This document shows positions 1,444 to 25,181 of a stretch of 25,422 nucleotides of DNA, in pieces (positions within the stretch are counted from its first letter, which is position 1; each line of letters starts with the position of its first letter). The notes under the pieces are model-generated. The model had not been told where the DNA came from. It saw only the letters and a program-made list of their open reading frames with translations, and did not search any database. Both the position numbers and the translations under genes were made by a program. Source of the stretch: a virus; the UHGV virus genome UHGV-0247665; one strand, given 5' to 3'.

Positions 1444-1547
1444 GTTAAATCTCCAGATAGTCGCAGCACCCGTTGCGCCGCATATCTGGTTATTCTATTA
1501 CCTGAAAAACCACATATGGATAGAAAGACTGTAAATACGAATAGATA

Positions 1548-1562
1548 TTACCTTTCGGGTAA
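1548..1562. promoter_or_regulatory. TTACC-N5-GGTAA palindromic motif copy (ATTACC-tttcg-GGTAAT)
   Basis: In the divergent intergenic region between the tailspike start (1443) and the LexA box/85-aa gene; followed by TTGCAA. Confidence 0.5.
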
Positions 1563-1601
1563 TTTGCAAAACGTGCTGGATAGCAAACAAATTATTTGAT
1601 A

Positions 1602-1617
1602 CTGTATAAATATACAG
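1602..1617 (+). promoter_or_regulatory. LexA (SOS) box, CTGT-N8-ACAG
   Basis: 20-mer TACTGTATAAATATACAGTT (about 1600-1619) matches the E. coli LexA consensus TACTGTATATATATACAGTA at 18 of 20 positions with both CTGT and ACAG arms intact. It is preceded by TTGATA (1596-1601) and lies 21 nt upstream of the ATG at 1639. Confidence 0.75.
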
Positions 1618-1638
1618 TTATTACATGGAGAAGATAAG

Positions 1639-1896
1639 ATGCAGCAGTATCACTATCCACTGGAAGACGGATTTACCGAAAGGATTCACACGCCGGGAGG
1701 CGTCAGGTCACTGGTGGAGGGATCGCACTTGATGAAATTACTCCGGGATCTCGATAAGGATGGATTTAATGTCGATGGCCCACTTGCCGAACTGACTGCA
1801 CTGATTAACTACGTCACCAGCTCACAGATGTCTATGCAGGATCTACAAACACATCTCGACTATTGTGCCGAACAATTACGAAAACAAACCAGATAA
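1639..1896 (+). CDS. Small protein (85 aa) homologous to the C-terminal domain of the downstream antirepressor; candidate SOS-controlled antirepressor or modulator
   Basis: ORF track 1639..1896; GGAG at 1627-1630, 8 nt before the ATG. Its sequence (HTPGGVRSLVEGSHLMKLLRDLDKDGFNVDGPLAELT...DLQTHLDY) aligns with antirepressor residues HSPSGVLGLTENSLLMNLLNQLQEDGHDVSGAAAELT...DIQTHAEY at roughly 35-40% identity by eye. Confidence 0.7.
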   Translation: MQQYHYPLEDGFTERIHTPGGVRSLVEGSHLMKLLRDLDKDGFNVDGPLAELTALINYVTSSQMSMQDLQTHLDYCAEQLRKQTR

Positions 1897-1927
1897 GGTT
1901 TGCAATTACCAAATGGAGTGCTTATAT

Positions 1928-1942
1928 TTACCTTTGCGGTAA
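1928..1942. promoter_or_regulatory. TTACC-N5-GGTAA palindromic motif copy (TTTACC-tttgc-GGTAAA)
   Basis: Between the 85-aa ORF stop and the antirepressor leader; followed by TTTACA. Confidence 0.5.
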
Positions 1943-1977
1943 ATTTACATCGCACTCCTCTTGTGCCATAGTAATCG

Positions 1978-1999
1978 GGCACTGGCAAAATCCAGTGCC
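1978..1999 (+). other. Perfect 8-bp inverted repeat stem-loop (GGCACTGG-caaaat-CCAGTGCC) in the antirepressor leader
   Basis: Read directly from the sequence; no U-run follows, so it is not a classical terminator. Confidence 0.5.
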
Positions 2000-2035
2000 G
2001 GGATTGGCGTCACGAGTTACTACAGAGGCACATAT

Positions 2036-2055
2036 GCCGCATAAGCGGTTTTTTT
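2036..2055 (+). terminator. Weak intrinsic terminator-like hairpin (gCCGC-ataa-GCGGt followed by TTTTTTT)
   Basis: 4-5 bp stem followed by seven T residues, 140 nt downstream of the 85-aa ORF and about 150 nt upstream of the antirepressor start. Confidence 0.35.
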
Positions 2056-2208
2056 ATGTGTAAAGCGCACCTATTCTATGGTGGGCTGTGTGGGGGCACC
2101 GAAAGGTGCGCCGGGTCCTTTGTAGCCGGTTACGCCAACCCTGCACAGTTCACCACCAACCGATTGGCGTCGGTAGTGGTGATTAACCTAACTACAAAGG
2201 TGATCGCT

Positions 2209-2895
2209 ATGACTGCTAACGTAACCCCATCTGTTTTTCATTTTGAATCAGAAGCAACCATTCGAGCCATTGTTATTGATGGAAATCCTTGGTTTGTTGC
2301 CAAAGACGTTATTAAAGCTCTTCAACTGACAAACCCCACTATGTCAATAAAATCTCTTGATGATGATGAAAGGGCTAAATTTAACTTAGGCCGTCAAGGC
2401 GAAACCAATATTATCAACGAGTCAGGCCTCTACACACTGTTCCTCCGCTGCCGCGATGCGGTGACACCAGGCACTACCCCCTACCGCTTTCGTAAATGGG
2501 TTACAGGTGAGGTTCTTCCTCAGATCCGCCGCACCGGAAGCTACATTAAAAACTCGCTCCCGCAGGAAGAACGCATAAAGATGGTTGCCGACCAGGTAGC
2601 CAACGCCACGGCGTCAGCAGTAATGCAGGCGATGAAGATAGAGAACAAAACCTACAGCGCCCCGCTGAAGCCCGGCTACCGCAGTTTGATTCACTCGCCG
2701 TCTGGTGTTCTCGGCCTGACGGAGAACTCACTGCTGATGAATCTGCTGAACCAGTTACAGGAAGACGGGCACGACGTATCGGGCGCGGCGGCGGAACTGA
2801 CCACCATGTTCTGCTACATCGTCGGTGTGAGTAAATGCCTGCGTGATATCCAGACCCACGCGGAATACATCAACGACAAGGCAGGGGTCTTCTGA
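2209..2895 (+). CDS. Phage antirepressor with N-terminal Bro-N domain (228 aa from ATG 2209)
   Basis: In frame within ORF track 2056..2895. The ATG at 2209 is preceded by AAAGGTGA. N-terminus SVFHFESEATIRAIVIDGNPWFVAKDVIKAL...NIINESGLYTLFLRCRD...FRKWVTGEVLPQIRRTGSY matches the Bro-N consensus. The sequence upstream of 2209 within the tracked ORF is structured leader, not coding. Confidence 0.85.
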   Translation: MTANVTPSVFHFESEATIRAIVIDGNPWFVAKDVIKALQLTNPTMSIKSLDDDERAKFNLGRQGETNIINESGLYTLFLRCRDAVTPGTTPYRFRKWVTGEVLPQIRRTGSYIKNSLPQEERIKMVADQVANATASAVMQAMKIENKTYSAPLKPGYRSLIHSPSGVLGLTENSLLMNLLNQLQEDGHDVSGAAAELTTMFCYIVGVSKCLRDIQTHAEYINDKAGVF

Positions 2896-2904
2896 CAGAA
2901 CGGC

Positions 2905-2931
2905 GGCACAGGGATGTGCCTTTAAATAATT
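2905..2931 (+). terminator. Intrinsic terminator after the antirepressor gene (GGCACA-GGGA-TGTGCC then TTTAAATAATT)
   Basis: 6-bp GC-rich stem with a 4-nt loop and a T/A-rich tail, starting 10 nt after the stop at 2893-2895. Confidence 0.5.
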
Positions 2932-2961
2932 CTGTACAGATTGCAGGTGAATAGCGTACTA

Positions 2962-2976
2962 TTACCCCAAAGGTAA
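2962..2976. promoter_or_regulatory. TTACC-N5-GGTAA palindromic motif copy (ACTATTACC-ccaaa-GGTAAG)
   Basis: About 120 nt upstream of the two-gene cassette start; followed by TTGATT. Confidence 0.5.
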
Positions 2977-3093
2977 GAAAGTTGATTTGTAACATTTTAG
3001 TTTGTAGTTACCGTGATGGTTTTGCTGCAGAAAGTTAACTAGTCAAAATCACACCGTATGTAAGTCACGTCTGTTCCCGTATGGGAGGATGAT

Positions 3094-3312
3094 ATGTTTA
3101 AATTTGATATGCAACTCAACCAAAACTATGCCTCTTTTTACCATCCAGAAACTGGTAAAGCTGTTTTCGTTGACTCTTTCGATAATGAAGAATTTGATAT
3201 CAGAATTGGGACCCTACGCCAAAGTAAGCATGTTGCTACTGTACGTGCATCCAATGATGATGAATTAAATCAAAAAATAAGTGAGGCGACCTCCCGTTAT
3301 CTATGTCTATAA
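3094..3312 (+). CDS. Hypothetical protein (72 aa), first gene of an AT-rich two-gene cassette
   Basis: ORF track 3094..3312; strong SD GGGAGG 5 nt before the ATG. Local GC is well below the flanking phage DNA. No recognisable family. Confidence 0.6.
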   Translation: MFKFDMQLNQNYASFYHPETGKAVFVDSFDNEEFDIRIGTLRQSKHVATVRASNDDELNQKISEATSRYLCL

Positions 3313-3680
3313 CAGAACAACAACTCATTGATCTTGAGGATGAGATTAACGAGATCTTGCAAGAAGATGCGGCAAGAATTCACTTTTCATTTCACGCAGC
3401 ATATGAACGCCTGAACGACGAGAGGAACAAACCGCCAATTACTCTTGCTGAGCTTGAAGATGTGTTTAAATCGTTTATATCTGCACATCTGCAGACTGTT
3501 TTGGATTTTGCTGAAGGTACAACTTTCACCATAAAGTGCAACAAAAGCGCCCTTCATTTTCCTTGCGCCATTGTACACGAAAGAGAGTTTGGGAAAACGT
3601 GGGTTATCCAAAACGTCATTACAGCCATGAGGAAAGTGGGATTCAAGTCTAAAGATTCTATTATCCTCGAAGTTAATTAA
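3303..3680 (+). CDS. Hypothetical acidic protein (125 aa), second gene of the cassette, translationally coupled
   Basis: ORF track 3303..3680. Its ATG at 3303 overlaps the upstream stop at 3310-3312 (ATGTCTATAA) with no independent SD in range. Followed directly by a terminator. Confidence 0.65.
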   Translation: MSITEQQLIDLEDEINEILQEDAARIHFSFHAAYERLNDERNKPPITLAELEDVFKSFISAHLQTVLDFAEGTTFTIKCNKSALHFPCAIVHEREFGKTWVIQNVITAMRKVGFKSKDSIILEVN

Positions 3681-3701
3681 GCCCGCACTGAGGGCTTTTT
3701 T
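3679..3701 (+). terminator. Intrinsic terminator (AAGCCC-gcactga-GGGCTT then TTTT)
   Basis: 6-bp stem with a 7-nt loop and a U-run immediately after the TAA at 3678-3680. Confidence 0.6.
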
Positions 3702-3773
3702 ATGGACGAAACAAAAGTCAGTGCTACACTCATTGACGCCACATTGAGGTGGCTTATAGATGGAAATTTCACA

Positions 3774-3935
3774 ATGAAAAAAGCATTTGCTGCACTGTTC
3801 GTTTTGTTGTCTCTGGTAGCTTCAACTCAGGCCTTTGCCGGTCGTTGTCAGCACGACAGCGACACTGCTGCTGACGGCTCCCGCTGCGGTGGGCGTTCTG
3901 CGGATTCCCGCCCGGGTGGCGGTGGCATTCGTTAA
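3774..3935 (+). CDS. Small secreted protein (53 aa precursor; Sec-type signal peptide, about 31-aa Gly/Arg-rich mature part with two Cys)
   Basis: Internal ATG of ORF track 3702..3935. MKKAFAALFVLLSLVASTQAFA is a canonical signal peptide with an AxA cleavage motif; the mature part is GRCQHDSDTAADGSRCGGRSADSRPGGGGIR. Possible promoter TTGACG (3733-3738) and TATAGA (3755-3760). The SD is weak. Confidence 0.5.
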   Translation: MKKAFAALFVLLSLVASTQAFAGRCQHDSDTAADGSRCGGRSADSRPGGGGIR

Positions 3936-3958
3936 AAACAAGGCCGCGAAAGCGGCCT
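3931..3958 (-). terminator. Intrinsic terminator for the minus-strand lipoprotein gene (7-bp GC stem with GNRA-type loop, U-run on the minus strand)
   Basis: AGGCCGC-GAAA-GCGGCCT at 3941-3958. On the minus strand it is followed by TTGTTTTTAAC. It sits between the convergent genes ending at 3935 (+) and 3967 (-). Confidence 0.55.
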
Positions 3959-3970
3959 GTGACATGTCAC
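3959..3970. repeat. 12-bp perfect palindrome GTGACATGTCAC (copy 1)
   Basis: Exact match; contains the TGA stop of the lipoprotein gene. Confidence 0.6.
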
Positions 3971-4347
3971 GCAACGCAATTATTACCGCGCCATGTAACA
4001 TTTTTAATAATCTTATCAGCACCAAACTCAACGTAAACAGAGCAACTGAAATGGAGTGTATAACCGCCATCAGTTGTTGCGTATGTGTTTGAATATATAG
4101 TATTACCAATTAGATTAGACGTAGTATTATACGTTGTGGTTTGTGGTACGTTATAACTACCAGAGCTTGAGTAAACATACACTCTGTTTCCATCTGGAGA
4201 TGTAAGCTCTCCCTGAGGATACCCCCACTGCTGAACCATTGCGTCTATACTCTGCCCGCGCCACGTAAGCATATTTCTTTCAAACTGTGCAGCTGACTGG
4301 CATCCAACGAGAAGCATAAATCCAAAAATCAAAAATACTTTTCTCAT
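3967..4347 (-). CDS. Outer-membrane lipoprotein (126 aa); candidate lysogenic-conversion or superinfection-exclusion protein
   Basis: In frame within ORF track 3967..4383. The ATG at 4347 is preceded by GGGGG with a 5-nt spacer. N-terminus MRKVFLIFGFMLLVGCQSA carries a lipobox (LLVGC). The mature part is Ser/Thr/Asn/Tyr-rich. The stop codon lies inside the GTGACATGTCAC palindrome. Confidence 0.75.
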   Translation of the reverse strand: MRKVFLIFGFMLLVGCQSAAQFERNMLTWRGQSIDAMVQQWGYPQGELTSPDGNRVYVYSSSGSYNVPQTTTYNTTSNLIGNTIYSNTYATTDGGYTLHFSCSVYVEFGADKIIKNVTWRGNNCVA

Positions 4348-4432
4348 AATTACCCCTATCATGGAAAAACAGCACCAATCCACAAATTAACTAGTTATTT
4401 TATTATTCTTCCGAACAATACAATTCCGAATA

Positions 4433-4555
4433 CTACAAAGCCGAACCATGCCGCTGCACGCAACAGAGATTCCAATTGAAACCCATTTTTATCAAAATGT
4501 ATGAATAGCATAAAAACGCTGCACATATTAGTACAATAAAAGTTATTTGAACCAT
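4433..4555 (-). CDS. Small hydrophobic membrane peptide (about 40 aa), not in the ORF track
   Basis: Tandem ATGs at 4558 and 4555 (minus) lie 2 and 5 nt after the SD AAAGGAG, which itself directly follows the TAA of the 824-aa gene. Reading frame MMVQITFIVLICAAFLCYSYILIKMGFNWNLCCVQRHGSAL*. It is in a different frame from ORF-track entry 4395..4583, which lacks an SD. Confidence 0.45.
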   Translation of the reverse strand: MVQITFIVLICAAFLCYSYILIKMGFNWNLCCVQRHGSAL

Positions 4556-4566
4556 CATATCTCCTT

Positions 4567-7041
4567 TTATTGCGGAGTGACATCCTGTGGTCGCCACCAG
4601 TATGTCTGGTTAAACTCTTTCTTCGAACGTTGCTCCATTTTACGCAAATAGCCTGGTGAAAAATACTCCTGCATCTGGTTAAAGATCATGTGATCGAGAG
4701 CCGCCTTCAAGTACCAGAGATTCGCACCAGGCATCAAACCTTTCCCCAGCTTCACCAGATCACCACCAGTCTGCTCACTCTTCCCTTCCACAGCATTTAA
4801 CGGTATGCCCTGAGCAATCTTCACTACGTCATCAACCAGACCAGCTACCGGGCCAAGCATCGACGCCAGCGCGCCGCTTCCGTACCTAGTGTGATCTGAC
4901 AATAAAAAGTCACCGTAAAGGCCAAGACCACCACCTTTCAGTAGAGCACCAAGCCAGAATTTTGCGGCATCTTCTCCTGTCATCTCTCGAGGATTACGAC
5001 CAGACGCAAGGTCGTTAAGTTGCTGCGACAAAGCGCCAAGAATGGTCGTACTGGCAATAAACGTCGCAATATATGCCGCACGCCCACCAGCAGACGGCAT
5101 ACCCATAGCGCGTGACCAGTGACGCATAACAACCGAGATAGGGAACGATTTAAACAGGAAAACACTTCTCGTTAATTCACCTTTCCATGTTCCACGCTGA
5201 ATACCAGAACCGGTTATCAGTTGCTCACGTGCTCCCGGTGTAATAACAGCCATATCAACTTCTTCAGTTACGGCACCGAGCAGTTTACGCATTGCCTCAA
5301 ATTTCACGCGTTCAGGCTCACCAAGATGTTTAACTGCTGAATCAGAGATACGCATAATGCTTTCCGGTGTCAGCATCGTATTATTACCGTTCCCCCAGTC
5401 CTCCTGTTTCGCCAGCTTCCATACGCTCCAGTCTGTGTCAGTAATCCCTTTGCTTTTCAGGATACGAAAATCAGAGTCATCGAGGCTACGAAGGTCTGGT
5501 GTCCGTGACACTACTTCTCCCAGGCTTCCCATCATGGTTACGCCATAGGCGCGCTTGTGCGCATCTGACCATGCTGTAAGCCCACTGGCACGCATTACCG
5601 CCGTTGCCGCCCAACGAGACACTGACGGCCCCATATTATCCATCGCCCAGCGGTTAACGCTGCCAAGTAGAGATTCCATCGCCAGACCAGCGCGGCGCGC
5701 CCGCGCAAGTTCTGTACGGTTCGTTGGGTCCATAGCTTCAAGCTGGTTGCGGAATAACTGGTTCATTGGAAGGTTGGTAACCTTCGCAGACAGATACATG
5801 GTTCCAAGATCAGAGAACGATGACAGCAACGCGGATCCGAGTCTGCTGGCAACCAGCCAGTTGCGGATATTGTCAGACCATCGCGCGATGTGCGGATTCG
5901 CTACAGGCTGTGTCTTTCCGGAAATAAAGTTGTACAGATTCTCTGTGTTGTTCGCCAGCCGCTCGACTTTACCGGTTTTACTCGGGTTAGCTGTTGCCGT
6001 TTCTGCCTTCACCTGATCAAGAAGAGAGCGGAAAACATGATCGGGGTTTGGGCCATATGTTTCCACCAGTGCAATATCTTTACTGATACCTTCCAGGTGA
6101 CCGACCATGATTTCCCATAGAGAGCGATCGCCATAAAGTTGCTGATATTGCAGATAGGAATCTGCATCTTTGAAATGTATCTGTCGTGATGCATTACCAC
6201 GGTTAGCACGTGCGCCGGAAATTCGCATTCCGGTATCAGTAAGCTTATTCAGCCCACCAGTAGCGATCGTGTTATAAGCCTCTCCAAGAAATGAAGACAA
6301 CTCGGCATCGTTCATCAGTTGTCCATCGGCTCGGATATAATATTTGCGATCCAGCTTACCTATAACATCGCTAACCCACTTATCCTTTGATACTGCCCCA
6401 ACCTTTTCCATAGAATGATGTTGAGGGATCCCCCAGTTTTCGAGATAGCCAATGTCCCCACCAGCATCATTAAACCGGCGGCGCAGCAGCTCTGTAACTT
6501 CTCTCCACGCCTTAGCACCGTTTCTTGCTTTAGCATTGCCAGTATTTTGCCCCCGCATTTCATATACCAGGTCACGTACGCCCGCTTCATCTTCAAACAG
6601 ACCAAAAAAGCGAGGATCAACTGCTTCGAATGCCTCCTGCAATTGACTCAATGCATAATCACGGGTGGCTTTTGTTCTGGATTCAACAGAGAGGAAATTA
6701 GATTTACCGTCTGCATTAAAAGCTATAGTACGGTTAAGAGCGCCAAGTTTCCCATCAGCCCCTTGATAGCTATTGATAAATTTATCCAATCTCTGACGCG
6801 CGGCTATAGTGAGAGCCACACGACGTTTCTTTAATGCCGCTTCTCGCTGTAATTCTTCAGATGCCAATTGTGCTGCTCGATATAGCCGCTCTGATTCGGA
6901 AAGTTGTCGCCACGACATAGGGTCATCACGAGCAATGGAGCGCATATTTCGATAAATGCGGTCTTCAATGTTCTGTATTTCTCGCGCCGTTAACATGCGC
7001 TGCGCCGCCTGCTGAACCGCTTGTATACATTCCTGTCTCAT
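4567..7041 (-). CDS. Internal virion / ejection protein (824 aa)
   Basis: ORF track. Last large gene of the minus-strand core-protein block, with a Gly-rich hydrophobic C-terminal region typical of membrane-inserting ejection proteins. Functional analogue of T7 gp14-16 by position and size only. Confidence 0.75.
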   Translation of the reverse strand: MRQECIQAVQQAAQRMLTAREIQNIEDRIYRNMRSIARDDPMSWRQLSESERLYRAAQLASEELQREAALKKRRVALTIAARQRLDKFINSYQGADGKLGALNRTIAFNADGKSNFLSVESRTKATRDYALSQLQEAFEAVDPRFFGLFEDEAGVRDLVYEMRGQNTGNAKARNGAKAWREVTELLRRRFNDAGGDIGYLENWGIPQHHSMEKVGAVSKDKWVSDVIGKLDRKYYIRADGQLMNDAELSSFLGEAYNTIATGGLNKLTDTGMRISGARANRGNASRQIHFKDADSYLQYQQLYGDRSLWEIMVGHLEGISKDIALVETYGPNPDHVFRSLLDQVKAETATANPSKTGKVERLANNTENLYNFISGKTQPVANPHIARWSDNIRNWLVASRLGSALLSSFSDLGTMYLSAKVTNLPMNQLFRNQLEAMDPTNRTELARARRAGLAMESLLGSVNRWAMDNMGPSVSRWAATAVMRASGLTAWSDAHKRAYGVTMMGSLGEVVSRTPDLRSLDDSDFRILKSKGITDTDWSVWKLAKQEDWGNGNNTMLTPESIMRISDSAVKHLGEPERVKFEAMRKLLGAVTEEVDMAVITPGAREQLITGSGIQRGTWKGELTRSVFLFKSFPISVVMRHWSRAMGMPSAGGRAAYIATFIASTTILGALSQQLNDLASGRNPREMTGEDAAKFWLGALLKGGGLGLYGDFLLSDHTRYGSGALASMLGPVAGLVDDVVKIAQGIPLNAVEGKSEQTGGDLVKLGKGLMPGANLWYLKAALDHMIFNQMQEYFSPGYLRKMEQRSKKEFNQTYWWRPQDVTPQ

Positions 7042-7046
7042 TTAAT

Positions 7047-8849
7047 TTAACCTCTCAAGAAACACGCCACAGCGACATCAAACAGGCTGGAATCCTGTAT
7101 TGCCTGCTCACTTTCCCTGTTCGCTTCATCCAGTGCTTCACGCGCACTGCGCGATTGTGGATTACCATCATCATCCAGCACGGTGATTATCATGTCAGGT
7201 GATTCAAGCAGCGAGTCTTCAGCTATGCGCAAATCAATATCTCCTGCCTGATCTGACATCATTTTTTGTTCTGCCTGTTGCAATATTTTATCAGGCTCAA
7301 AAGGAGCTACTTCGTCTGGCGTCCTGACCTCTGCTGTTTTATAGAATGAAACAGCCTGAGCATTAAGTTCACTTTCTGCCTGCTGTCTCCGAGCCAGTTC
7401 TGCTCGAGCTTCAAAAAACTGACCGCCAGGCTCATGCGGTGCCAACGCGTTACGAGAAAATTCCAGGCGTTCTTGTGCCTGCCGGATTCGTTGGTCAATA
7501 TCGCGAAGTCTGGCCTGTTTATCTGATCGAGCACGAGATAAAGCCTTACCGCTACCGGCTGGATCTTCTGCAAGAATTTGTGCGCGCTGTTCAGTGAGAT
7601 TTTCAATAATTCGTTGGCTATTAGCGATTTCAGACTGGTAAACCTGTCTATCGCCACGCGGCAAAAGCTGCGCGGCCTGTTCTTCAAGCAACCGATTTTC
7701 TATAGCGCGCGCCGTTACTCCATCATCTACAGATGACAGAGCCTCATTAACTGCCTGAGACAGCAGACTCTTGCGTCCAGGAATTTCACTGAAAGATGCA
7801 GACTCAACAATGCTGGCAACGTCTACAGGTCTCCCCTGGCTAACATCAGACATGGCTTTTCGCAGAGCCTGAATGTGCGAATTACGCGAAAGCACGTTGA
7901 TCGGCACGCCGGGAGCAATATCAATTTCAGCATGATGAGCGGCATTCGCCGCCAGTGCAGCATCGATATCAACTGGTGAAAAATTTGGTGCGCTTGTAGA
8001 CTCGCCGCGAGAGTTAATAAATCTGCCGACACCACCAAACGCCACCCCAAGAACAGCATCAATAGCAATTGCCTGTCGATCCAACACATCATACTGGTTA
8101 GCCATTTCGCTATAGCCACCATCACGAAGCGTTTTTGCAGTAAGCCCACGCTGTGCCATACCGAACGCAATATTTGTACCTGCGGCATAGGCAATATCTG
8201 GCGTTGCACGTACTGCTGTTGCTGCGGCGCGTCGCACTGAACTTTCACCCGTCCGCGCAAGCTGAGCCGCCACACCTTCCGCCAGCGCACCACCAGCACG
8301 TAACCCGAGGCTCATAGGGATCAGTGTTCCGGCACCAGCAGTAATACCCTGCACTAATCCCGCTTCCTGCGCCGTCCTGAAATCAACACCCTGTGCTGTA
8401 AGCCGTTCAAACTCAGAAAAACCCTGTAGAGAAGTTACCGCCGCAGCACCTCCGACCGGACCACCGAGCGTTGTACCGACAACAGCCTGCCCGCCCATAT
8501 CGAACAACCCATAAAGGACCTGCCCGGCGGTTCCGGTTGTCGCGGCATCAGGCGTCAGCCGCTTAACCTGCTGCTCTGCTAGTTTTCTCTGCTCAGCAAT
8601 GTATGAAACTGAAGTGTCATTGATCGAGGTGTTTTCGTTAACAAACTGAGCAATCGGGGATACGATTTTATCCATCCCTGCCCATAGCAACTGATCTGGC
8701 TTTGCCACCAGCCCGGAGTACAAACCAGACAATGCCGCTCCTACAGCATTGTCGAAAAAACCAACATCGCTGTTAAAACCAGCTGGATTTGATGCTGCTT
8801 CGTCAAGCTGCTGATTCTGGTTTACTGGATTAAGGCCAAAGTAACTCAT
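7047..8849 (-). CDS. Internal virion / ejection protein (600 aa), Gly/Ala-rich
   Basis: ORF track. Contiguous with its neighbours at 5-nt spacing or 4-nt overlap. Long Gly/Ala-rich hydrophobic stretch. Confidence 0.75.
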   Translation of the reverse strand: MSYFGLNPVNQNQQLDEAASNPAGFNSDVGFFDNAVGAALSGLYSGLVAKPDQLLWAGMDKIVSPIAQFVNENTSINDTSVSYIAEQRKLAEQQVKRLTPDAATTGTAGQVLYGLFDMGGQAVVGTTLGGPVGGAAAVTSLQGFSEFERLTAQGVDFRTAQEAGLVQGITAGAGTLIPMSLGLRAGGALAEGVAAQLARTGESSVRRAAATAVRATPDIAYAAGTNIAFGMAQRGLTAKTLRDGGYSEMANQYDVLDRQAIAIDAVLGVAFGGVGRFINSRGESTSAPNFSPVDIDAALAANAAHHAEIDIAPGVPINVLSRNSHIQALRKAMSDVSQGRPVDVASIVESASFSEIPGRKSLLSQAVNEALSSVDDGVTARAIENRLLEEQAAQLLPRGDRQVYQSEIANSQRIIENLTEQRAQILAEDPAGSGKALSRARSDKQARLRDIDQRIRQAQERLEFSRNALAPHEPGGQFFEARAELARRQQAESELNAQAVSFYKTAEVRTPDEVAPFEPDKILQQAEQKMMSDQAGDIDLRIAEDSLLESPDMIITVLDDDGNPQSRSAREALDEANRESEQAIQDSSLFDVAVACFLRG

Positions 8850-18655: not shown

Positions 18656-20331
18656 TGTGATTGCCCACCCTGACCACTAACTGCATTCGCCATAGCTGAC
18701 AAAACACTCGGATCCGAAGTTTTAGCTTCGCTTAGCGTCTTGGCACCCTGTGCCGCCGCCATCCCCATCGCCATCATTTGTTGCTGCTGTTGTTGCTGTG
18801 CCCGTTGCTGGCGAGCCTGCTCAACCTGTTCCTGCGGAACAATGACGGTTGGAGACACTCCGGACATATCAGCGAATGCATCGATCGCCTGATCAACGTT
18901 GAGTTTGTCGAGAGCTTCTGGTTTCGCTTGCGCAAGTTGACCAATGAAGTTGACCGTAGACGCCAGACTGGACAGGCCGATAGACTTCTGCGCCTGAGCC
19001 ATGACGGAAATGTATTCGACCTTCAGGGGCATACCTTCCATTGCGTCAGGCGGTGGCGGCAGCATGTTTTTACGCACCATCATCGAGAAAGCGCGGTCAA
19101 TGAGAGGATTAAGACATTCGTCGTTCAGACGCTCCAGAACCGGCCCCAACATCAGAAGTTTTTCTTCTTTCATTTCGATCACCGCTTCAACAGGCATCGA
19201 GCGGGTATTGATGTTCTGCAACATCATGAACAGATCGACAAAGTAGGCGCTGTTAATGATTTGACGGGTGTCCTGAATGTCTGCCACCAAATCTGCTGTA
19301 CTGGGGTTAACCAGATAAGCAGGCCTGAAGCCATCCTGACCAGTAATCTGATCGATATACGTGATGTCGCCAGGAAGAAGGGAGGCGCGCTGATTCTTGA
19401 GGGAAGTCGGAGCAACCATCGGCGGATTGGTGGCTTTATCAATCAACTGCGACTTGCGCTTCTGGAGAAGCTGCAATGCCTTAACAGGTCCAAGCGCCAG
19501 CATACCCGGGCATGATGATCCATAAACATCTTCGCCATTAACTTCCCAGCGCGGAGCCATAATTGGAAACTCATCAAATCCGGACTCACGCAACAACTTG
19601 TCGTTATCGCCACCAACCTCGTAATAAACCGATTTGAATGGCTTGTTCTTGCTATCCAGCTTCGATGTATCGCGGTCAATGTTCGGGTAAACCGAATGCA
19701 TCACGTCAATCCACTTCTCGTAGGTGCCGCTTTCCCACATGCTTTTTACGGATTCGCTGACGTTATTTAGCCCGAACTCCTGAACAAGCTGACGAACAGT
19801 CATAGAGAACTTGCGAAAACAGGTGTCCACACTGCCACGAGGTGAGTTAGCCAGGTAGTAACTGCCTATCGGGAATGGCATTGTGCGAATGATGTCCTCG
19901 TCATCCTCCAGCACCGCCATTGCACCAGTGCTGTATGTGCCGAGGCTTCCGTATAACTGCGGAAGAGACTGGTAGAGATTCGACTTATTGAACATATCGT
20001 TCATGCGGTTCTGCACCGCCTCGAGCCACAACTTAACAGGACCATAATCCATCATTTCAGGATCTGGCGTAGCCAGGCGAAACCACGGACGCGCAGGGCT
20101 TGTGATGCCTGACATCATGCCGCTGGCGAGAGTGCGCGCCGCCATAGTCCCGGTCGAATCAATAATGCGTGTATTGCGTCGATCGTTACGGTTGACCTCA
20201 GAAGTCAGAAAGCGGGAACCACGCGGGTTGATGTAATCACTCAACTCGCGCCAGTGCGGCTCGAACGACTGACGCTCGCTTTCAAGTTGTGCGAACTGTT
20301 TGTTCAATCGCTCTTTAGTTGTTTCCGCCAT
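18652..20331 (-). CDS. Portal (head-tail connector) protein, 559 aa
   Basis: ORF track. About 560 aa, downstream of terminase. Its C-terminal Gln/Ala/Met-rich tail (QQQQQQQMMAMGMAAAQGA) resembles the T7 gp8-type portal C-terminus. Confidence 0.85.
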   Translation of the reverse strand: MAETTKERLNKQFAQLESERQSFEPHWRELSDYINPRGSRFLTSEVNRNDRRNTRIIDSTGTMAARTLASGMMSGITSPARPWFRLATPDPEMMDYGPVKLWLEAVQNRMNDMFNKSNLYQSLPQLYGSLGTYSTGAMAVLEDDEDIIRTMPFPIGSYYLANSPRGSVDTCFRKFSMTVRQLVQEFGLNNVSESVKSMWESGTYEKWIDVMHSVYPNIDRDTSKLDSKNKPFKSVYYEVGGDNDKLLRESGFDEFPIMAPRWEVNGEDVYGSSCPGMLALGPVKALQLLQKRKSQLIDKATNPPMVAPTSLKNQRASLLPGDITYIDQITGQDGFRPAYLVNPSTADLVADIQDTRQIINSAYFVDLFMMLQNINTRSMPVEAVIEMKEEKLLMLGPVLERLNDECLNPLIDRAFSMMVRKNMLPPPPDAMEGMPLKVEYISVMAQAQKSIGLSSLASTVNFIGQLAQAKPEALDKLNVDQAIDAFADMSGVSPTVIVPQEQVEQARQQRAQQQQQQQMMAMGMAAAQGAKTLSEAKTSDPSVLSAMANAVSGQGGQSQ

Positions 20332-20552: not shown

Positions 20553-20642
20553 ATCAATGACTCCGTACGCAATTAAATTATCACCAATTTAACCACATAT
20601 GATTTATTTATCGTAGATAGTTGACATTTAACGCATGAATTA

Positions 20643-20657
20643 TTACCTTTCAGGTAA
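20643..20657. promoter_or_regulatory. TTACC-N5-GGTAA palindromic motif copy (ATTACC-tttca-GGTAAG)
   Basis: Intergenic, between the 68-aa/portal gene start and the tRNA; a TTGACA hexamer lies at 20621-20626. Confidence 0.5.
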
Positions 20658-20979
20658 GTAAAGTGTTCATTCCGGTTATTAACCTGACTGGCTTATCGTT
20701 AAATTGAACAGGTGGAGTGAGCTTTTATTTTGAGCAGTACGGCGTATGGCACATGCGCCGATAGCGGTCTGGATACGTTTAAGGGGCACCCTCCCTTGCT
20801 CGGGCAAACGAACCAGGTAGCCGGAATGTGCAAGTCGAGCGGTTTTATTCCGCGCACGGGGATTCACCATCCCGGCGATTCGGTGTGACGCCTCGGAAGA
20901 GACGAGGGTACAACGATGAGAGCATTTATGGAGCCGCGACAAAGTGTGGCGCCTTAACAGGCTAAGTGCTCTCAGCGTT

Positions 20980-21056
20980 GTGGCATTAGCTCAGTTGGAC
21001 AGAGCAACCGCCTTCTAAGCGGTTGGTCGCAGGTTCGAATCCTGCATGCCACGCCA
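20980..21056 (+). tRNA. tRNA-Arg (anticodon UCU), 77 nt with encoded CCA
   Basis: Folded by hand: 7-bp acceptor stem GTGGCAT/ATGCCAC, D-arm, anticodon stem ACCGC/GCGGT with loop CTTCTAA (U33, anticodon TCT, A37), T-arm GCAGG-TTCGAAT-CCTGC, discriminator G, CCA. Close to the E. coli argU-type tRNA. Confidence 0.92.
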
Positions 21057-21141: not shown

Positions 21142-21219
21142 ACAGCAGGACGCCATTGCGATGACTTCATGCTGTAAACCCGTACAGCCACGGAAGGCAT
21201 AACTCATTGCTTCCAGTTC

Positions 21220-21243
21220 GCCCGGTTCGCCGGGCATTTTTTT
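21220..21243 (+). terminator. Terminator-like hairpin (GCCCGG-TTCG-CCGGGC then ATTTTTTT) immediately upstream of the 118-aa gene SD
   Basis: 6-bp GC stem with a UUCG tetraloop and a 7-T run; the downstream SD AAGGTGA begins at 21244. Confidence 0.45.
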
Positions 21244-21254
21244 AAGGTGAGATT

Positions 21255-21611: not shown

Positions 21612-21615
21612 CACC

Positions 21616-21627
21616 GTGACATGTCAC
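21616..21627. repeat. 12-bp perfect palindrome GTGACATGTCAC (copy 2)
   Basis: Exact match; 5 nt after the stop of the 118-aa gene and adjacent to the terminator hairpin. Confidence 0.6.
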
Positions 21628-21631
21628 AAAC

Positions 21632-21659
21632 AGCCAGCTCATAGGCTGGCTTTGTTTTA
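21632..21659 (+). terminator. Intrinsic terminator (AGCCAGC-tcatag-GCTGGCT then TTGTTTTA) between convergent genes
   Basis: 7-bp stem with a T-rich tail on the plus strand; lies between the 118-aa gene stop and the large terminase stop. Confidence 0.55.
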
Positions 21660-21701
21660 TCCTCATCAGAGGATATCAACGACATTATCCCCACCAGCGG
21701 A

Positions 21702-23177
21702 TTAAGCATACGGGTCATAATCTGTGATGGCCTTGCCTTGCTGGTTCTGCTGCCCAGGAATTCGCAGACGCTTCGACACAGGGAAAGCAAACGTCAGCAA
21801 TAGCGCATCGCCTTTACCAGGAGAACGCCCAAGCCGCTCCTTGATATCTTCCTTCGGTTCGATAACGATTTTACCGTCCACGCGAACTTTGTACTCTGCC
21901 GCCGACAGGTCGTCCGCTGTTTCCTGGTCATCCAGCATGCCGCCCAGCCTCAGCCATGTCTTGCATGAGTTGAACATCTCCCCACGCTTGTTAAGCATCT
22001 GCGGGTCAGTAGACGCGCCACCGAACGGAACAAGTTGCCATGTACGCCCCCAACCATCACCGATTGACTTCAAACCGGTTCCGTAACCGAAGTCGATGAA
22101 CACCGCGTCAGCCTGGTACTGGTCTTCAAAGTCAGCGATACGCTTCGCCATAATCAGATCGTCAGTGGTCTTGTTGCCGGTCCACAGCACCTTACTGTGC
22201 AGCCCCTGCCGCAGATATATCACCGCGTCATCAACACCGGAGTATGCCGGGTCAACGCCGATTATCACCGGAGCATGTGCAACCTGCGCAGCGGTGACCA
22301 CCCGTTTCATTGCCTCGTCAGTAAGTCCGGTAGGGATAAACTGCAATTCAGATGCATCCGGGAATATGCCGCGCACACGGATTTTAACGAAGTCGCTATC
22401 TTCCCCGTAGTCATCAACCCATTTCTGCAACTGCTGTTTGTTAGTGCCTTCCACCGTCCGGCTGTCAATCTGCGCAGTTTTCCAGCGGTGTTTGTATTTG
22501 CGGAAACATTCGCGAAAACGCCCGGTATTACGTGTAGGGTTTCCGAACGCCACCCAGATAATCTCAGTGTCTTCGTCCGTAAGCGCACCCTCAGCAACTT
22601 CCCACACCAGATCCGCAATGTTCGACGCTTCATCGAATACCACGATGATGCGTTTGCGCTCGTTGTGTAGTCCGGCGAATGCCTCAGTGTTGTGCTCAGA
22701 CCAGGGGATTGCGTCAGCTCGCCACCGCTTGTCGTGCCCAGGATCATTGCTGTACATCGCAGTAGCGGTACAGGTAAACCAGTCTTTCGTGATAGCAAGG
22801 TTCGACCACTTGATAATTTCCGGCCAGGTCTTCGTTCGTAGCTGGTTGTCGGTGTTGGCGGTCACCACGACCTTACAATCCTCGCAAGTGGACATGCCCC
22901 AGTTGATCAGCATTGAGATGAATGCGGATTTACCAATACCGTGACCCGAAGCACGTGCCAGCATAAGCGGCTGATAGCGCGTCTCTGGATTCTGCAGGTG
23001 ATCACGTATCTCTCGGAACGCATCAGCCTGCCACTGACGTGGGCCGGTAGCATGTGCCAGTTCAGTCCCCTCTTCCCCCCACGGGAACGCATAGAGGGCA
23101 TAGCCAAGCGGATCGTGAGTGAACCCTGCAATATCCTCGATCAACTGCTCTTCAGGAGATAACGCTGTATCTGTCAC
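21702..23177 (-). CDS. Terminase large subunit (491 aa)
   Basis: ORF track. Walker A-like GHGIGKSAF, Walker B-like IIVVFDEAS, and C-terminal nuclease-type motifs (GVDPAYSG, FIDFGYG). 4-nt overlap with the small-subunit gene. Confidence 0.9.
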   Translation of the reverse strand: MTDTALSPEEQLIEDIAGFTHDPLGYALYAFPWGEEGTELAHATGPRQWQADAFREIRDHLQNPETRYQPLMLARASGHGIGKSAFISMLINWGMSTCEDCKVVVTANTDNQLRTKTWPEIIKWSNLAITKDWFTCTATAMYSNDPGHDKRWRADAIPWSEHNTEAFAGLHNERKRIIVVFDEASNIADLVWEVAEGALTDEDTEIIWVAFGNPTRNTGRFRECFRKYKHRWKTAQIDSRTVEGTNKQQLQKWVDDYGEDSDFVKIRVRGIFPDASELQFIPTGLTDEAMKRVVTAAQVAHAPVIIGVDPAYSGVDDAVIYLRQGLHSKVLWTGNKTTDDLIMAKRIADFEDQYQADAVFIDFGYGTGLKSIGDGWGRTWQLVPFGGASTDPQMLNKRGEMFNSCKTWLRLGGMLDDQETADDLSAAEYKVRVDGKIVIEPKEDIKERLGRSPGKGDALLLTFAFPVSKRLRIPGQQNQQGKAITDYDPYA

Positions 23178-23770
23178 TGATTACCATCCTGACGTTCTTT
23201 GAGTCGCTTCCTGGCTGCTGCTATGCGATCAGCAATTGTCACATTCACATTAACATCCAGACGTTCTTTGAACGCGTTGACATCAACATGCTTACCAATC
23301 AGCTCAAGGTTCTTCACCTTGTCAGGCCATTTAATTTTTTTGAGGATTGTCTCTATCGAATCCTCGTTCATGTTCATGATGGTCGATGACAGATCAAAGC
23401 CACTAAGCGTAGTGCGCCAGATTTTCGGCCACTCACGGATTGGTTTAAGGCTCCCATCGTCGTTGAGGATGTCGATCACGTCCATCTGGTCGATCTGCAC
23501 CAGGCGCATGAGAACGTAATCAGCACTGACGCGCATTCGTTTGTTGCGCTCCTCCATCAACTCGGCAATCCGTTTTTGAATGCGTTCATCGCGCATCATG
23601 ACACTGGCTTTAACTGCCGCTGTATTTGGGGAGAATCCTGCGTTAATCGCTGCCTGAGTCTGGTTTTCAGGCGTTTTGATGTATGACTGGCAATAAGCCT
23701 CCTGCATTGCTGTTAGTGGCTTAAATTGCGTTGATTTGCGTTTATAGGTTTTAGGTTCAGCAGGCATCAT
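23174..23770 (-). CDS. Terminase small subunit (about 199 aa from ATG 23770)
   Basis: ORF track 23174..23848 uses a TTG start. I prefer the tandem ATGs at 23770 and 23767, preceded by GGTGG, because a terminator hairpin and motif cluster occupy 23771-23848. The LTAMQEAYCQSYIKTPENQTQAAINAGFSPNTAAVKA region resembles small-terminase (Terminase_2-type) N-terminal domains. Confidence 0.75.
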   Translation of the reverse strand: MMPAEPKTYKRKSTQFKPLTAMQEAYCQSYIKTPENQTQAAINAGFSPNTAAVKASVMMRDERIQKRIAELMEERNKRMRVSADYVLMRLVQIDQMDVIDILNDDGSLKPIREWPKIWRTTLSGFDLSSTIMNMNEDSIETILKKIKWPDKVKNLELIGKHVDVNAFKERLDVNVNVTIADRIAAARKRLKERQDGNQ

Positions 23771-23787
23771 AACCACCGTGGTAATAG

Positions 23788-23802
23788 TTACCGTTTTGGT
23801 AA
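23788..23802. promoter_or_regulatory. TTACC-N5-GGTAA palindromic motif copy within a cluster of GGTAATAGT repeats
   Basis: GGTAATAGTTACC-gtttt-GGTAATAGTACC lies 20-40 nt upstream of the small terminase ATG. Confidence 0.5.
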
Positions 23803-23813
23803 TAGTACCATGC

Positions 23814-23839
23814 AAAATAAAGCCGCCATAGTTGGCGGC
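23814..23839 (-). terminator. Intrinsic terminator on the minus strand between the 115-aa gene and the terminase operon (GCCGCCA-n4-TGGCGGC then UUUAUUUU)
   Basis: 7-bp GC stem at 23822-23839; the minus-strand U-run corresponds to plus-strand A-run 23814-23821. Confidence 0.5.
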
Positions 23840-23880
23840 AGTATTCAAAACCCATCAAATTCATCATGCATAATCTACTC

Positions 23881-23892
23881 GTGACATGTCAC
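23881..23892. repeat. 12-bp perfect palindrome GTGACATGTCAC (copy 3)
   Basis: Exact match; contains the TGA stop of the 115-aa gene, upstream of the terminase operon. Confidence 0.6.
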
Positions 23893-24236
23893 ACTATTAA
23901 TTTCGTTTCATGCCAGCCTTTAGTCACCCAGCATTGCGAGTCACCATTACACGGGCATGAATTAACGGGAACTCTCTCGCCGCACTTACCGCAACGTTTT
24001 CTGCTGATCGATTTTATACGCCCGCGCACACGTGCATCATCCTGGCGGATCAGCAGCGCGATGTACTCGGACATTTCATAGGGATCGCGACCAGGGCGCC
24101 GGGCGGCGCAGTTCCGCGCCAGCATTTCCTGCTCCTGCTTATCCAGCACCAGTTCAATTTTGCGCTCACCGGCGGCGGACTGCCGAGCGCGCTGCGCGGC
24201 TTTGCGTTCTGCGGGGGATTTAGCCACGAATCGCAC
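23889..24236 (-). CDS. Basic protein with C-terminal Cys cluster (zinc-ribbon-like), 115 aa
   Basis: ORF track (GTG start). CGKCGERVPVNSCPCNGDSQC near the C-terminus; Lys/Arg-rich N-terminus. The stop codon is embedded in the GTGACATGTCAC palindrome. Confidence 0.5.
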   Translation of the reverse strand: MRFVAKSPAERKAAQRARQSAAGERKIELVLDKQEQEMLARNCAARRPGRDPYEMSEYIALLIRQDDARVRGRIKSISRKRCGKCGERVPVNSCPCNGDSQCWVTKGWHETKLIV

Positions 24237-24342
24237 TCCACGCCAGATTGATTAATGACTCCCAGGTAATATAAACCCGGATACCAGCAGCCAGGCCGAA
24301 ACCAATCACCATGGCATAAAGCAGAGCGTTGCACTTGTTCAT
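24220..24342 (-). CDS. Small membrane peptide (40 aa), translationally coupled to the upstream gene
   Basis: ATG at 24342 overlaps the TAA of the 279-aa gene (TAATG); strong SD AGGAGG 7 nt upstream. MNKCNALLYAMVIGFGLAAGIRVYITWESLINLAWSAIRG has a single predicted TM helix. The ORF-track entry 24220..24489 is the same frame extended upstream. Confidence 0.5.
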   Translation of the reverse strand: MNKCNALLYAMVIGFGLAAGIRVYITWESLINLAWSAIRG

Positions 24343-25181
24343 TACTTCGCCTCCTGCGGCGGTTCCGGTAGCGGCATCCAGAACAAGGCGTTCCCTAACC
24401 ACGATAAAGTGCCATCGCTCAACTCCACGTATTCCCCTTGTACCTGTCCTGCCATATACTCGCCGTGCTTTGAATAAATTAAAATCCAATCATCTTGAGG
24501 GGGCATTCGCTCACTACAGCTTATCCAACCATCCGGAGTTACCGGAGAGTTGCCTGCCAGTCTACGCAAAACAGCCTTAACAGCCTCAATACGGTCATCA
24601 TCGCAATTTTCCAGCGTATCTATGCGGTCGAGCATGATGATGGCGTTATCAATATCAGGATTGCCGGTCCACTCATTACCGCGATTGGATTCGGCAGCCT
24701 GGTTGCCAGATGCTGGCTGATTGTCGGCTTTACCCAGTCTGTCGTCGCTGCATGAATGCCCTTCCAGCCAGGCCAATGCTTGTCGCATGAAATACGCAAT
24801 ATGTTTGCCGTGGTAATCGTCTTCATCGATGTGAAAAGCGATACTACGAATGTATTCAATTGCGTTTTCAATGGCCTCTAACGCTATCGGCGCTGGCGGA
24901 GTGGTATATAGTTTTCGACATTTGTATATCCAACCGGCATGGTCAGGCGTGTCTGTAAAACGCAAATCGTCTTCGTAGCACTCACGACTACGTTCTTTCC
25001 ATTCCGTCCACGGAACACCGCTATTCCAGGTGGGGCGAGTGCAGGACTGATACAGAACAGGCTCTGCTTCCAGCGATGCCAGTGCAATCCGTGCCAGTTC
25101 CATTTGTTCGCCACGGGTAAGTCCGTTTTCAAGCGGATTTTTAATGAACAATTCAATACGTTCTTTGGTAATAGTGGTCAT
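24342..25181 (-). CDS. Phage protein with C-terminal DUF551-type domain (279 aa)
   Basis: ORF track; SD GAGGA 7 nt before the ATG. The C-terminal signature DGWISCSERMPPQDDWILIY...ALFWMPLPEPP matches my recollection of DUF551. Confidence 0.65.
   Translation of the reverse strand: MTTITKERIELFIKNPLENGLTRGEQMELARIALASLEAEPVLYQSCTRPTWNSGVPWTEWKERSRECYEDDLRFTDTPDHAGWIYKCRKLYTTPPAPIALEAIENAIEYIRSIAFHIDEDDYHGKHIAYFMRQALAWLEGHSCSDDRLGKADNQPASGNQAAESNRGNEWTGNPDIDNAIIMLDRIDTLENCDDDRIEAVKAVLRRLAGNSPVTPDGWISCSERMPPQDDWILIYSKHGEYMAGQVQGEYVELSDGTLSWLGNALFWMPLPEPPQEAK

What the first reader, a model, noticed from the sequence alone, without database searches (positions are those of the whole stretch)
1485..25176. 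Recurrent palindromic motif TTACC-N5-GGTAA (extended half-site CTATTACC / GGTAATAG) confined to intergenic junctions
Five full copies lie at 1548-1562, 1928-1942, 2962-2976, 20643-20657 and 23788-23802. The 9-mer GGTAATAGT occurs four more times: twice around the terminase start, once in the first codons of the 279-aa gene (25167-25175), and once as its reverse complement at 2958-2966. Isolated ATTACC half-sites sit at 1487, 1905 and 4349. By my rough estimate, about 0.02 chance copies of the 10 fixed positions are expected in 25 kb. All full copies sit in front of operon starts on either strand, several just upstream of -35-like hexamers, as expected for the operator of one dimeric phage regulator.
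Basis: seen in the sequence. Interest (0 to 1): 0.8.

Follow-up and report, generated by a model that had tools for sequence, protein, structure and literature searches.

The report
Prophage repressor operator sites (known type)
The repeated palindrome TTACC-N5-GGTAA is the binding site of the main repressor (Rep) of epsilon15/phiV10-like prophages, a motif already annotated in a sister phage, so the finding is real but ordinary.

Summary
All six lie in the 7% of the window that is non-coding.

The window is an E. coli prophage of the phiV10/epsilon15 group (Uetakevirus). It is 100% identical to contigs of phage Phi05_1387 B.

The same motif is annotated as 'protein_bind: repressor' in the epsilon15 GenBank record. 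It flanks the rep gene in every relative examined, including SPC32H, whose Rep and antirepressor Ant have solved structures. The source phage encodes a Rep identical to phiV10's. The window itself encodes the SPC32H-type Ant behind a perfect LexA box.

Across 72 prophages with identical Rep, the half-sites never change while the spacer varies freely.

It is already known for this genus. The isolated half-sites are at chance level, and one of them belongs to a different conserved element.

Less ordinary side results:
- Operator copies sit exactly at the junctions where accessory-gene cassettes are exchanged.
- Two further recurrent palindromes, AACC-N6-GGTT and GTGACATGTCAC, mark other positions in the transcription units.

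The parts
1547..1563 (.). Operator A, ATTACCTTTCGGGTAAT. It lies in the divergent region between the tailspike start (1443, minus strand) and ant (1639, plus strand), and abuts a conserved TTGCA(A/T) -35-like hexamer that reads toward ant.
   Evidence: Orthologous to the epsilon15 site 19895-19911, which is annotated 'repressor'. Present 91-92 bp upstream of the ant ATG in 76 of 79 related loci.
1927..1943 (.). Operator B, TTTACCTTTGCGGTAAA. It directly abuts the -35 of the promoter for the isrK-C4-Bro/Ant (P1 immI-like) module.
   Evidence: The promoter is TTTACA(1944)-17-TGcCATAGT(1972), and the isrK Rfam match starts at 1979. Orthologous sites exist in phiV10 (20497) and phiv142-3 (5138). 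The right flank is constant across loci.
2961..2977 (.). Operator C, ATTACCCCAAAGGTAAG. It lies 67 bp after the Bro-N gene and ahead of an accessory-gene cassette (3094-3935). It also marks a cassette junction.
   Evidence: TTGATT(2982)-17-TAGTTA(3010) was read. In related loci at least 7 unrelated sequences begin at the first base after GGTAA.
20642..20658 (.). Operator D, ATTACCTTTCAGGTAAG. Its left half contains the -10 (TACCTT, 20644-20649) of a conserved + strand promoter with a perfect -35 (TTGACA, 20621-20626). That promoter points toward tRNA-Arg and the gp49/66-family gene.
   Evidence: TTGACA is invariant in 5 genomes. Orthologous to the epsilon15 site 2931-2947, annotated 'repressor'.
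23787..23803 (.). Operator E, GTTACCGTTTTGGTAAT. It lies between an intrinsic terminator (23839-23822, minus strand) and terS.
   Evidence: Orthologous to the epsilon15 site 12-27, annotated 'repressor'.
23770..23784 (.). Operator F (one mismatch), TAACCACCGTGGTAA. It is in tandem with E (3-bp gap) and covers the terS Shine-Dalgarno sequence and first ATG (23770-23768).
   Evidence: The same tandem pair occurs in phiV10 (87/105), epsilon15 (12/30) and phiv142-3 (26472/26454).
1602..1617 (+). LexA box CTGTATAAATATACAG in front of ant.
   Evidence: Conserved in 5 genomes.
1639..1896 (+). Ant, an 85-aa antirepressor of the SPC32H type. It is the protein that removes Rep from these operators.
   Evidence: Matches PDB 5D50 chain E 'Anti-repressor protein' at E=4e-47.
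1979..2895 (+). Second antirepressor module behind operator B: isrK (1979-2055), C4 antisense RNA (2074-2160) and a Bro-N protein (2209-2895).
   Evidence: Rfam matches. Pfam Bro-N at E=3.8e-19.

Best explanation
The motif is the operator of Rep, the CI-like master repressor of epsilon15/phiV10-type (Uetakevirus) prophages. The rep gene lies just outside this window.

Binding. Each 15-17 bp palindrome, (A)TTACC-wwWww-GGTAA(T), is contacted by a pair of Rep N-terminal helix-turn-helix domains. Rep is reported to be a tetramer, so one molecule can hold two operators. These can be adjacent (the 18-bp tandem pair at terS), about six helical turns apart (the 62-bp pairs elsewhere in the genome), or possibly joined by looping.

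In the lysogen, bound Rep blocks RNA polymerase at the head of each transcription unit:
- It abuts the -35 of the ant promoter (A) and of the isrK-C4-Bro promoter (B).
- It precedes the accessory-cassette promoter (C).
- It covers the -10 of the tRNA-Arg/gp49-66 promoter (D).
- It sits as a tandem block between a terminator and the terS start (E and F).

Induction. DNA damage removes LexA from the box in front of ant. Ant then binds Rep and releases it from all operators at once.

Shown here: the motif, its statistics, its conservation, its positions, and the homology of Rep and Ant.

Inferred: physical binding in this phage, which promoter each site controls, and looping.
For: 1. Five exact sites and one 1-mismatch site, against 0.06 expected. 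All are non-coding.
2. The epsilon15 GenBank record annotates seven 16-17-mers as 'protein_bind: repressor / lysogeny'. These are exactly TTACC-N5-GGTAA. Three of them are positional orthologues of window sites A, D and E.
3. In every genome checked the motif lies between rep and the divergent cro-like gene (2-3 copies) and just downstream of rep (2-3 copies). This holds for phiV10, epsilon15, SPC32H, phiv142-3, Klebsiella BUCT711 and Enterobacter Tyrion.
4. Window positions 1-8018 are 100% identical to KM389360.1. That contig carries a Rep 100% identical to phiV10 p40, with operators at 1410/1458 and 2170/2232 around it.
5. phiV10-type Rep matches the SPC32H Rep structure 5D50 at E=4e-42. The presumed recognition helix NLVNRW is invariant across Reps that are only 43% identical overall. 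This fits the unchanged half-site.
6. The window encodes the cognate Ant (E=4e-47 to 5D50 chain E) behind a perfect LexA box.
7. In 72 prophage loci with identical Rep, the half-sites have zero entropy while the spacer and immediate flanks vary, with 19 variants at one site.
8. Secondary literature states that SPC32H Rep binds palindromic DNA sites as a tetramer and that Ant disassembles it (PMC9638917; PMC9986798).
9. Overexpressing the identical Rep in phage ZX5 cut lysis-gene transcription by more than 99.9% (PMC9782041).
Against: - No binding experiment exists for this phage. I could not read the primary SPC32H and epsilon15 papers, so I have not seen the exact DNA used in their binding assays.
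- Sites A and D lie about 67-79 bp upstream of the late-type promoters they adjoin. That is too far to occlude those promoters, so their assignment to the opposite-strand promoters is my reading.
- In relatives, one site sits about 40 bp upstream of lysogenic-conversion genes that should be expressed in lysogens. Not every copy need therefore be a simple repressing site.
- A Cro-like protein may share the same sites.
Confidence: 0.9

Rival explanations
1. The sites are bound mainly by a different phage regulator rather than by Rep. Candidates are the small Cro-like protein encoded divergently from rep, or a late-gene activator.
For: The motif also precedes late, lysis and integrase units. In lambda-type switches CI and Cro share operators (established knowledge). 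The Cro-like ORF has no Pfam match, so its specificity is unknown.
Against: The epsilon15 record assigns the sites to the repressor. The Rep recognition helix is invariant where the half-site is invariant. Copies flank rep itself, as autoregulated repressor operators do. Shared use by Cro would add to Rep binding, not replace it.
Confidence: 0.06
2. The palindromes act as RNA hairpins in the transcripts, for example as processing, attenuation or terminator-like elements, rather than as DNA operators.
For: Each site can form a 5-7 bp stem. The epsilon15 record predicts RNase III sites in some of the same intergenic regions.
Against: The stems are weak (-4 to -7 kcal/mol, z about -1.2 to -1.9). 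One-mismatch variants (TCACC..GGTAA, TTACC..GGTAT, TTACC..GGTAC, TTACC..GGTGA) are never compensated in the other arm. The arm sequence itself is invariant rather than co-varying. Several copies lie upstream of promoters, where they would not be transcribed.
Confidence: 0.02
3. The copies are primarily short 'linker' sequences for recombination between gene cassettes, and any regulatory role is secondary.
For: At site C, at least 7 unrelated downstream cassettes begin at the first base after GGTAA, and the same cassette is found joined to a different upstream module. At site B, three unrelated upstream contexts end within 6 bp of the operator.
Against: Operators flanking rep and cro are not at module junctions, yet they are just as conserved. 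Positions relative to -35/-10 elements are conserved. Junctions at operators may only mean that each cassette must bring or keep a repressible promoter.
Confidence: 0.02

Closest known systems
Rep operators of Salmonella phages epsilon15 and SPC32H (Uetakevirus), with the LexA-controlled antirepressor Ant (PDB 5D50, 5D4Z)
   Same: The half-sites and 5-bp spacer are identical. The genome positions match: upstream of terS, upstream of the portal operon, between ant and tailspike, and on both sides of rep. Rep is homologous (E=4e-42), Ant is homologous (E=4e-47), and the LexA box is present.
   Different: Rep here is the phiV10 type, only about 43% identical to SPC32H Rep. This phage has two extra operators (B and C) attached to a P1-like isrK-C4-Bro module and to accessory cassettes, both of which epsilon15 and SPC32H lack.
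Phage P1 C1 repressor with operators dispersed round the genome, including the one controlling the immI operon (c4 antisense RNA, ant). This comparison is from my own knowledge and was not checked here.
   Same: One repressor directly controls many separate transcription units through scattered operators. One of those units is a C4-RNA/antirepressor module (the C4 Rfam match is).
   Different: As I recall, the P1 operator is an asymmetric 17-mer and C1 is unrelated to Rep. Here the sites are symmetric and the protein is an HTH tetramer.
Mycobacteriophage L5 gp71 'stoperators' (from my own knowledge)
   Same: Many short repressor-binding sites are confined to intergenic regions throughout the genome, including positions downstream of promoters and terminators where they could block readthrough. 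Sites E and F here resemble that arrangement.
   Different: Stoperators are asymmetric, orientation-dependent and far more numerous. The sites here are palindromic and number about 15 per genome.
Lambda CI with OL/OR and tetramer/octamer-mediated looping (established knowledge)
   Same: There are clusters of 2-3 operators on each side of the repressor gene, a divergent cro-like gene, and a repressor able to bridge two sites.
   Different: Lambda CI controls only PL, PR and PRM and is inactivated by RecA-stimulated self-cleavage. According to the cited literature, Rep is inactivated by an antirepressor, and its sites extend to late, lysis and accessory units.

Membership tests
Uetakevirus (epsilon15/SPC32H/phiV10) Rep operator | Palindrome (A)TTACC-N5-GGTAA(T) with an A/T-rich spacer | tested here: met
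   Five exact sites and one 1-mismatch site. They have the same sequence as the epsilon15 features annotated 'repressor'. The central base is A or T in 23 of 23 unique sites.
Uetakevirus (epsilon15/SPC32H/phiV10) Rep operator | A cognate Rep gene in the same genome, flanked by multiple copies of the motif | tested here: met
   rep lies outside the window. Contig KM389360.1 is 100% identical to window 1-8018. It carries a Rep 100% identical to phiV10 p40, with sites at 1410, 1458, 2170 and 2232.
Uetakevirus (epsilon15/SPC32H/phiV10) Rep operator | Rep homologous to the structurally characterised SPC32H Rep, with a conserved DNA-recognition helix | tested here: met
   E=4e-42 to 5D50_A. NLVNRW is invariant in 5 Reps at 43-100% identity.
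Uetakevirus (epsilon15/SPC32H/phiV10) Rep operator | Positional orthology with annotated operators of relatives | tested here: met
   Sites A, D and E/F align with epsilon15 sites 19895, 2931 and 12/30, and with the SPC32H and phiV10 equivalents.
Uetakevirus (epsilon15/SPC32H/phiV10) Rep operator | Partner antirepressor Ant under LexA control | tested here: met
   Ant matches 5D50_E at E=4e-47. The LexA box CTGTATAAATATACAG is at 1602-1617.
Uetakevirus (epsilon15/SPC32H/phiV10) Rep operator | Physical, sequence-specific binding of Rep to the sites, with repression of the adjoining promoters | not testable with these tools
   Only indirect support is available: purifying selection on the half-sites, the GenBank annotation and secondary literature.
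RNA hairpin / processing element | Stable structure with compensatory changes in the stem | tested here: not met
   Weak folds with z of -1.2 to -1.9. Arm variants are uncompensated.

The most novel reading that the evidence does not exclude
Besides being operators, the dispersed Rep sites may be the 'linker' sequences at which accessory-gene cassettes are swapped between these prophages.

- In 79 related loci, operator C is the only sequence shared between one constant upstream module and at least seven unrelated downstream cassettes. The breakpoints fall at the first base after GGTAA.
- Operator B is preceded by three unrelated contexts. Each carries a second palindrome, AACC-N6-GGTT, exactly 27 bp upstream.

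If the phage's own RecE/RecT-type recombinase uses these 15-17 bp repeats, every new cassette would arrive already wired into Rep control. The operator would then be both the regulatory element and the evolutionary joint of the genome.
Probability: 0.25. Interest if true: 0.5.

Novelty: already known. Interest (0 to 1): 0.25.

Why it matters
For annotation, this assigns a function to about 15 intergenic sites per genome in a very common family of E. coli prophages. phiV10-type Rep was found unchanged in at least 80 viral contigs. It also shows that two different antirepressor modules, SPC32H-type Ant and P1-type C4/Bro, sit behind Rep operators in one phage. It adds nothing new about how such operators work. 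The part worth a follow-up is the coincidence of operators with cassette junctions. That bears on the old question of whether short conserved 'linker' sequences drive phage mosaicism.

Tried and rejected
- The primary papers are not held, so the exact DNA used in their binding assays was not seen. I tried Kropinski 2007 (PMC2698709), Kim & Ryu 2013 (PMC3807360) and Kim et al. 2016 (PMC4983836).
- A full-text search for the motif string returned only unrelated primer matches.
- I wanted a co-variation test with distant Rep homologues. The viral-contig scan returned only Reps 100% identical to phiV10's. NTD-only homologues from Pseudomonas and Moraxella phages gave no clear repeated palindrome.
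- Sigma-70 consensus scans were at background level. They supported only the promoter next to site B. The other promoter assignments rest on reading conserved hexamers in alignments.
- The RNA-hairpin reading was rejected: folds are weak and there is no compensation.
- The isolated half-sites and the 25167 9-mer were rejected as part of the system (sequence).
- A sigma-54 or DnaA-box reading of the second motif (ATGTGGTT) was considered by eye and dropped, because the spacing and consensus do not fit.
Full report
**Observation.** A pattern search finds TTACC-N5-GGTAA exactly five times, at 1548, 1928, 2962, 20643 and 23788. Dinucleotide-preserving shuffles give 0.06 expected, and none of 100 shuffles reaches five.

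Allowing one mismatch adds a sixth site at 23770-23784. It lies three bases from the 23788 site and covers the ribosome-binding site and first ATG of the small terminase gene.

With a gene map built from the ORF list and homology, 7.3% of the window is non-coding, and all six sites fall in it. All 17 two-mismatch matches that lie inside genes look like noise.

The isolated half-sites do not stand out. ATTACC/GGTAAT occurs 25 times, 16 of them in genes. The first half-site is at 1497, not 1487.

In 50 kb of E. coli K-12 DNA there are one exact and two one-mismatch matches, all inside genes and close to chance.

**What the window is.** It matches phiV10, phiv142-3 and other Uetakevirus phages at 96-98% identity over about 80% of its length. 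It is 100% identical to two unannotated contigs of Escherichia phage Phi05_1387 B.

The minus strand carries terS, terL, portal, capsid and tail genes, and the start of the tailspike gene. The plus strand carries several other features:
- An 85-aa ORF (1639-1896) that matches the SPC32H antirepressor Ant (PDB 5D50 chain E) at E=4e-47. It lies behind a perfect LexA box.
- An isrK RNA, a C4 antisense RNA and a Bro-N protein, which together form a P1 immI-like module.
- Small accessory genes with no Pfam match.
- tRNA-Arg and a gp49/66-family gene.

**Identity of the motif.** The epsilon15 GenBank record carries seven 'protein_bind: repressor / lysogeny' features. Their sequences are exactly TTACC-N5-GGTAA with an A...T flank.

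The motif (at most one mismatch) occurs 14 times in phiV10 and 15 times each in epsilon15 and phiv142-3. SPC32H has 18 such matches, of which 13 are intergenic. All exact copies in these genomes are intergenic.

In each genome there are two or three copies between rep and the divergent cro-like gene, and two or three just downstream of rep. The same holds in Enterobacter phage Tyrion and a Klebsiella relative.

The source-phage contig that overlaps this window encodes a Rep identical to phiV10's, with the expected operators round it. That Rep matches the SPC32H Rep structure at E=4e-42.

Across five Reps that are 43-100% identical, the helix NLVNRW is invariant. This fits an unchanged half-site across the genus.

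I could not read the primary papers. Papers that cite them say SPC32H Rep binds palindromic sites as a tetramer and is taken off the DNA by tetrameric Ant. They also say Rep has an N-terminal DNA-binding domain, a middle dimerisation domain and a C-terminal tetramerisation domain of a type linked to DNA looping. In phage ZX5, overexpressing the same Rep abolished lysis-gene transcription.

**Selection on the sites.** In 72 viral contigs with identical Rep, the half-sites of the operators flanking rep show zero entropy. The five spacer bases and the three to five flanking bases vary, with 19 variants at one site.

In 79 contigs carrying Ant, site A is present 91-92 bp upstream of the ant start in 76. 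One-mismatch variants are never compensated in the opposite arm, and the RNA folds are weak. This is the signature of a protein-binding DNA site, not of a hairpin.

**How the six sites are placed.**
- Site A abuts a conserved TTGCA(A/T) hexamer reading toward ant, upstream of the LexA box.
- Site B abuts the -35 of TTTACA-17-TGcCATAGT. The predicted start of that promoter coincides with the 5' end of the isrK match.
- Site C lies 5 bp before TTGATT-17-TAGTTA, ahead of the accessory genes.
- Site D contains the -10 (TACCTT) of a promoter whose perfect -35 (TTGACA) is invariant in five genomes. That promoter points toward tRNA-Arg.
- Sites E and F form a tandem pair between an intrinsic terminator and the terS start. 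The arrangement is conserved in all relatives.

The most likely mechanism is steric exclusion of RNA polymerase at A-D, and a block at the entry to the packaging operon at E/F. All would be relieved together when LexA cleavage lets Ant accumulate.

Elsewhere in these genomes, operator pairs recur at 62 bp centre to centre, about six helical turns. This would suit a tetramer holding two sites. That point, and looping between the single sites in this window, are inference.

The preferred extension is only A-TTACC / GGTAA-T.

The 'half-site' at 1497 is part of a different conserved element, CATATGTGGTT-N5-GGTAAT. It occurs exactly twice per genome, upstream of the tailspike gene and upstream of the portal operon. 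In both places it lies 35-47 bp from a Rep operator, and its GGTAAT overlaps a -10-like TAATAG/TAATAA.

**Comparison with known systems, and novelty.** All sequence-level defining features of the Uetakevirus Rep operator are met. Only physical binding is untested. The motif and its role are already recorded for this genus, so the finding is already known. Operators B and C, which attach a P1-type antirepressor module and accessory cassettes to Rep control, are additions not present in epsilon15 or SPC32H. Functionally the system resembles P1 C1 with its scattered operators, and to a lesser extent L5 stoperators. Both comparisons are from my own knowledge.

**Side result.** At site C the upstream flank is constant, but at least seven unrelated sequences start at the first base after GGTAA. 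The same downstream cassette is also found joined to a different upstream module.

At site B the downstream promoter is constant, while three unrelated upstream contexts end within 6 bp of the operator. Each of those contexts carries AACC-N6-GGTT exactly 27 bp upstream.

Operators therefore coincide with mosaic junctions. Whether they cause the exchange, or junctions are merely tolerated there, is open.

Noticed in passing
window 1497-1518 (-) and 20580-20601 (-); phiV10 L001 3308-3329 and 20921-20942: A second conserved element, CATATGTGGTT-N5-GGTAAT(A), occurs exactly twice per genome: upstream of the tailspike gene and upstream of the gp3/portal operon. It lies 35-47 bp from a Rep operator. 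It resembles a phage-specific late promoter with a weak -35, ATGTGGTT in the spacer and a -10-like TAATAG/TAATAA. A related form precedes the lysis genes in phiV10 (AACCATATATGGTT-N7-TATAAT).
   Followed up: partly
window 1887-1900; L001 24736 and 33132; L002 33749; L003 34799; L085 1054; loci L091-L170: A 14-bp palindrome, AACC-N6-GGTT, recurs in intergenic regions. It lies 5 bp from the operator downstream of cro, and exactly 27 bp upstream of operator B in three otherwise unrelated sequence contexts. The protein or RNA that uses it is unknown.
   Followed up: partly
window 3959-3970, 21616-21627, 23881-23892: The perfect 12-bp palindrome GTGACATGTCAC occurs three times (0.07 expected for one mismatch or fewer). 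Each copy is at the 3' end of a transcription unit, overlapping or next to a stop codon and just before an intrinsic terminator. The same placement is seen in SPC32H and phiv142-3. The phiV10 record starts in the middle of one copy.
   Followed up: partly
window 2961-2977 compared with loci L091-L170: Operator C is a mosaic junction. The upstream flank is constant, and at least 7 unrelated downstream cassettes begin at the first base after GGTAA. The spacer mostly travels with the downstream cassette.
   Followed up: yes
loci L006-L084 (around rep), e.g. locus positions ~3143, ~38 and ~100: Among prophages with identical Rep, operator spacers and 3-5 flanking bases are hypervariable (up to 23 variants at one site). 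The half-sites are invariant, and the surrounding intergenic DNA is much less variable.
   Followed up: partly
window 1602-1617 and 1639-1896; 1979-2895: Two antirepressor systems lie side by side. One is an SPC32H-type Ant behind a perfect LexA box. The other is a P1 immI-like module (isrK, C4 antisense RNA, Bro-N protein). Each has its own Rep operator.
   Followed up: partly
window 20658-20979: About 320 nt lie between the conserved TTGACA-17-TACCTT promoter and tRNA-Arg(TCT) (20980-21056). This stretch has no Rfam match. phiV10 annotates an opposite-strand hypothetical ORF here, and epsilon15 annotates a predicted RNase III site.
   Followed up: no
L001 41-715 (phiV10 terS): The annotated phiV10 terS start at 41 places both terS operators inside the gene. 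epsilon15, SPC32H and phiv142-3 all start about 80 bp further downstream, so the phiV10 start is probably annotated too far upstream.
   Followed up: no
window 3967-4347 (-): A 126-aa ORF begins MRKVFLIFGFMLLVGCQ, which looks like a lipoprotein signal peptide with a lipobox. It has no Pfam match. The 'half-site' at 4349 overlaps its ribosome-binding site.
   Followed up: no
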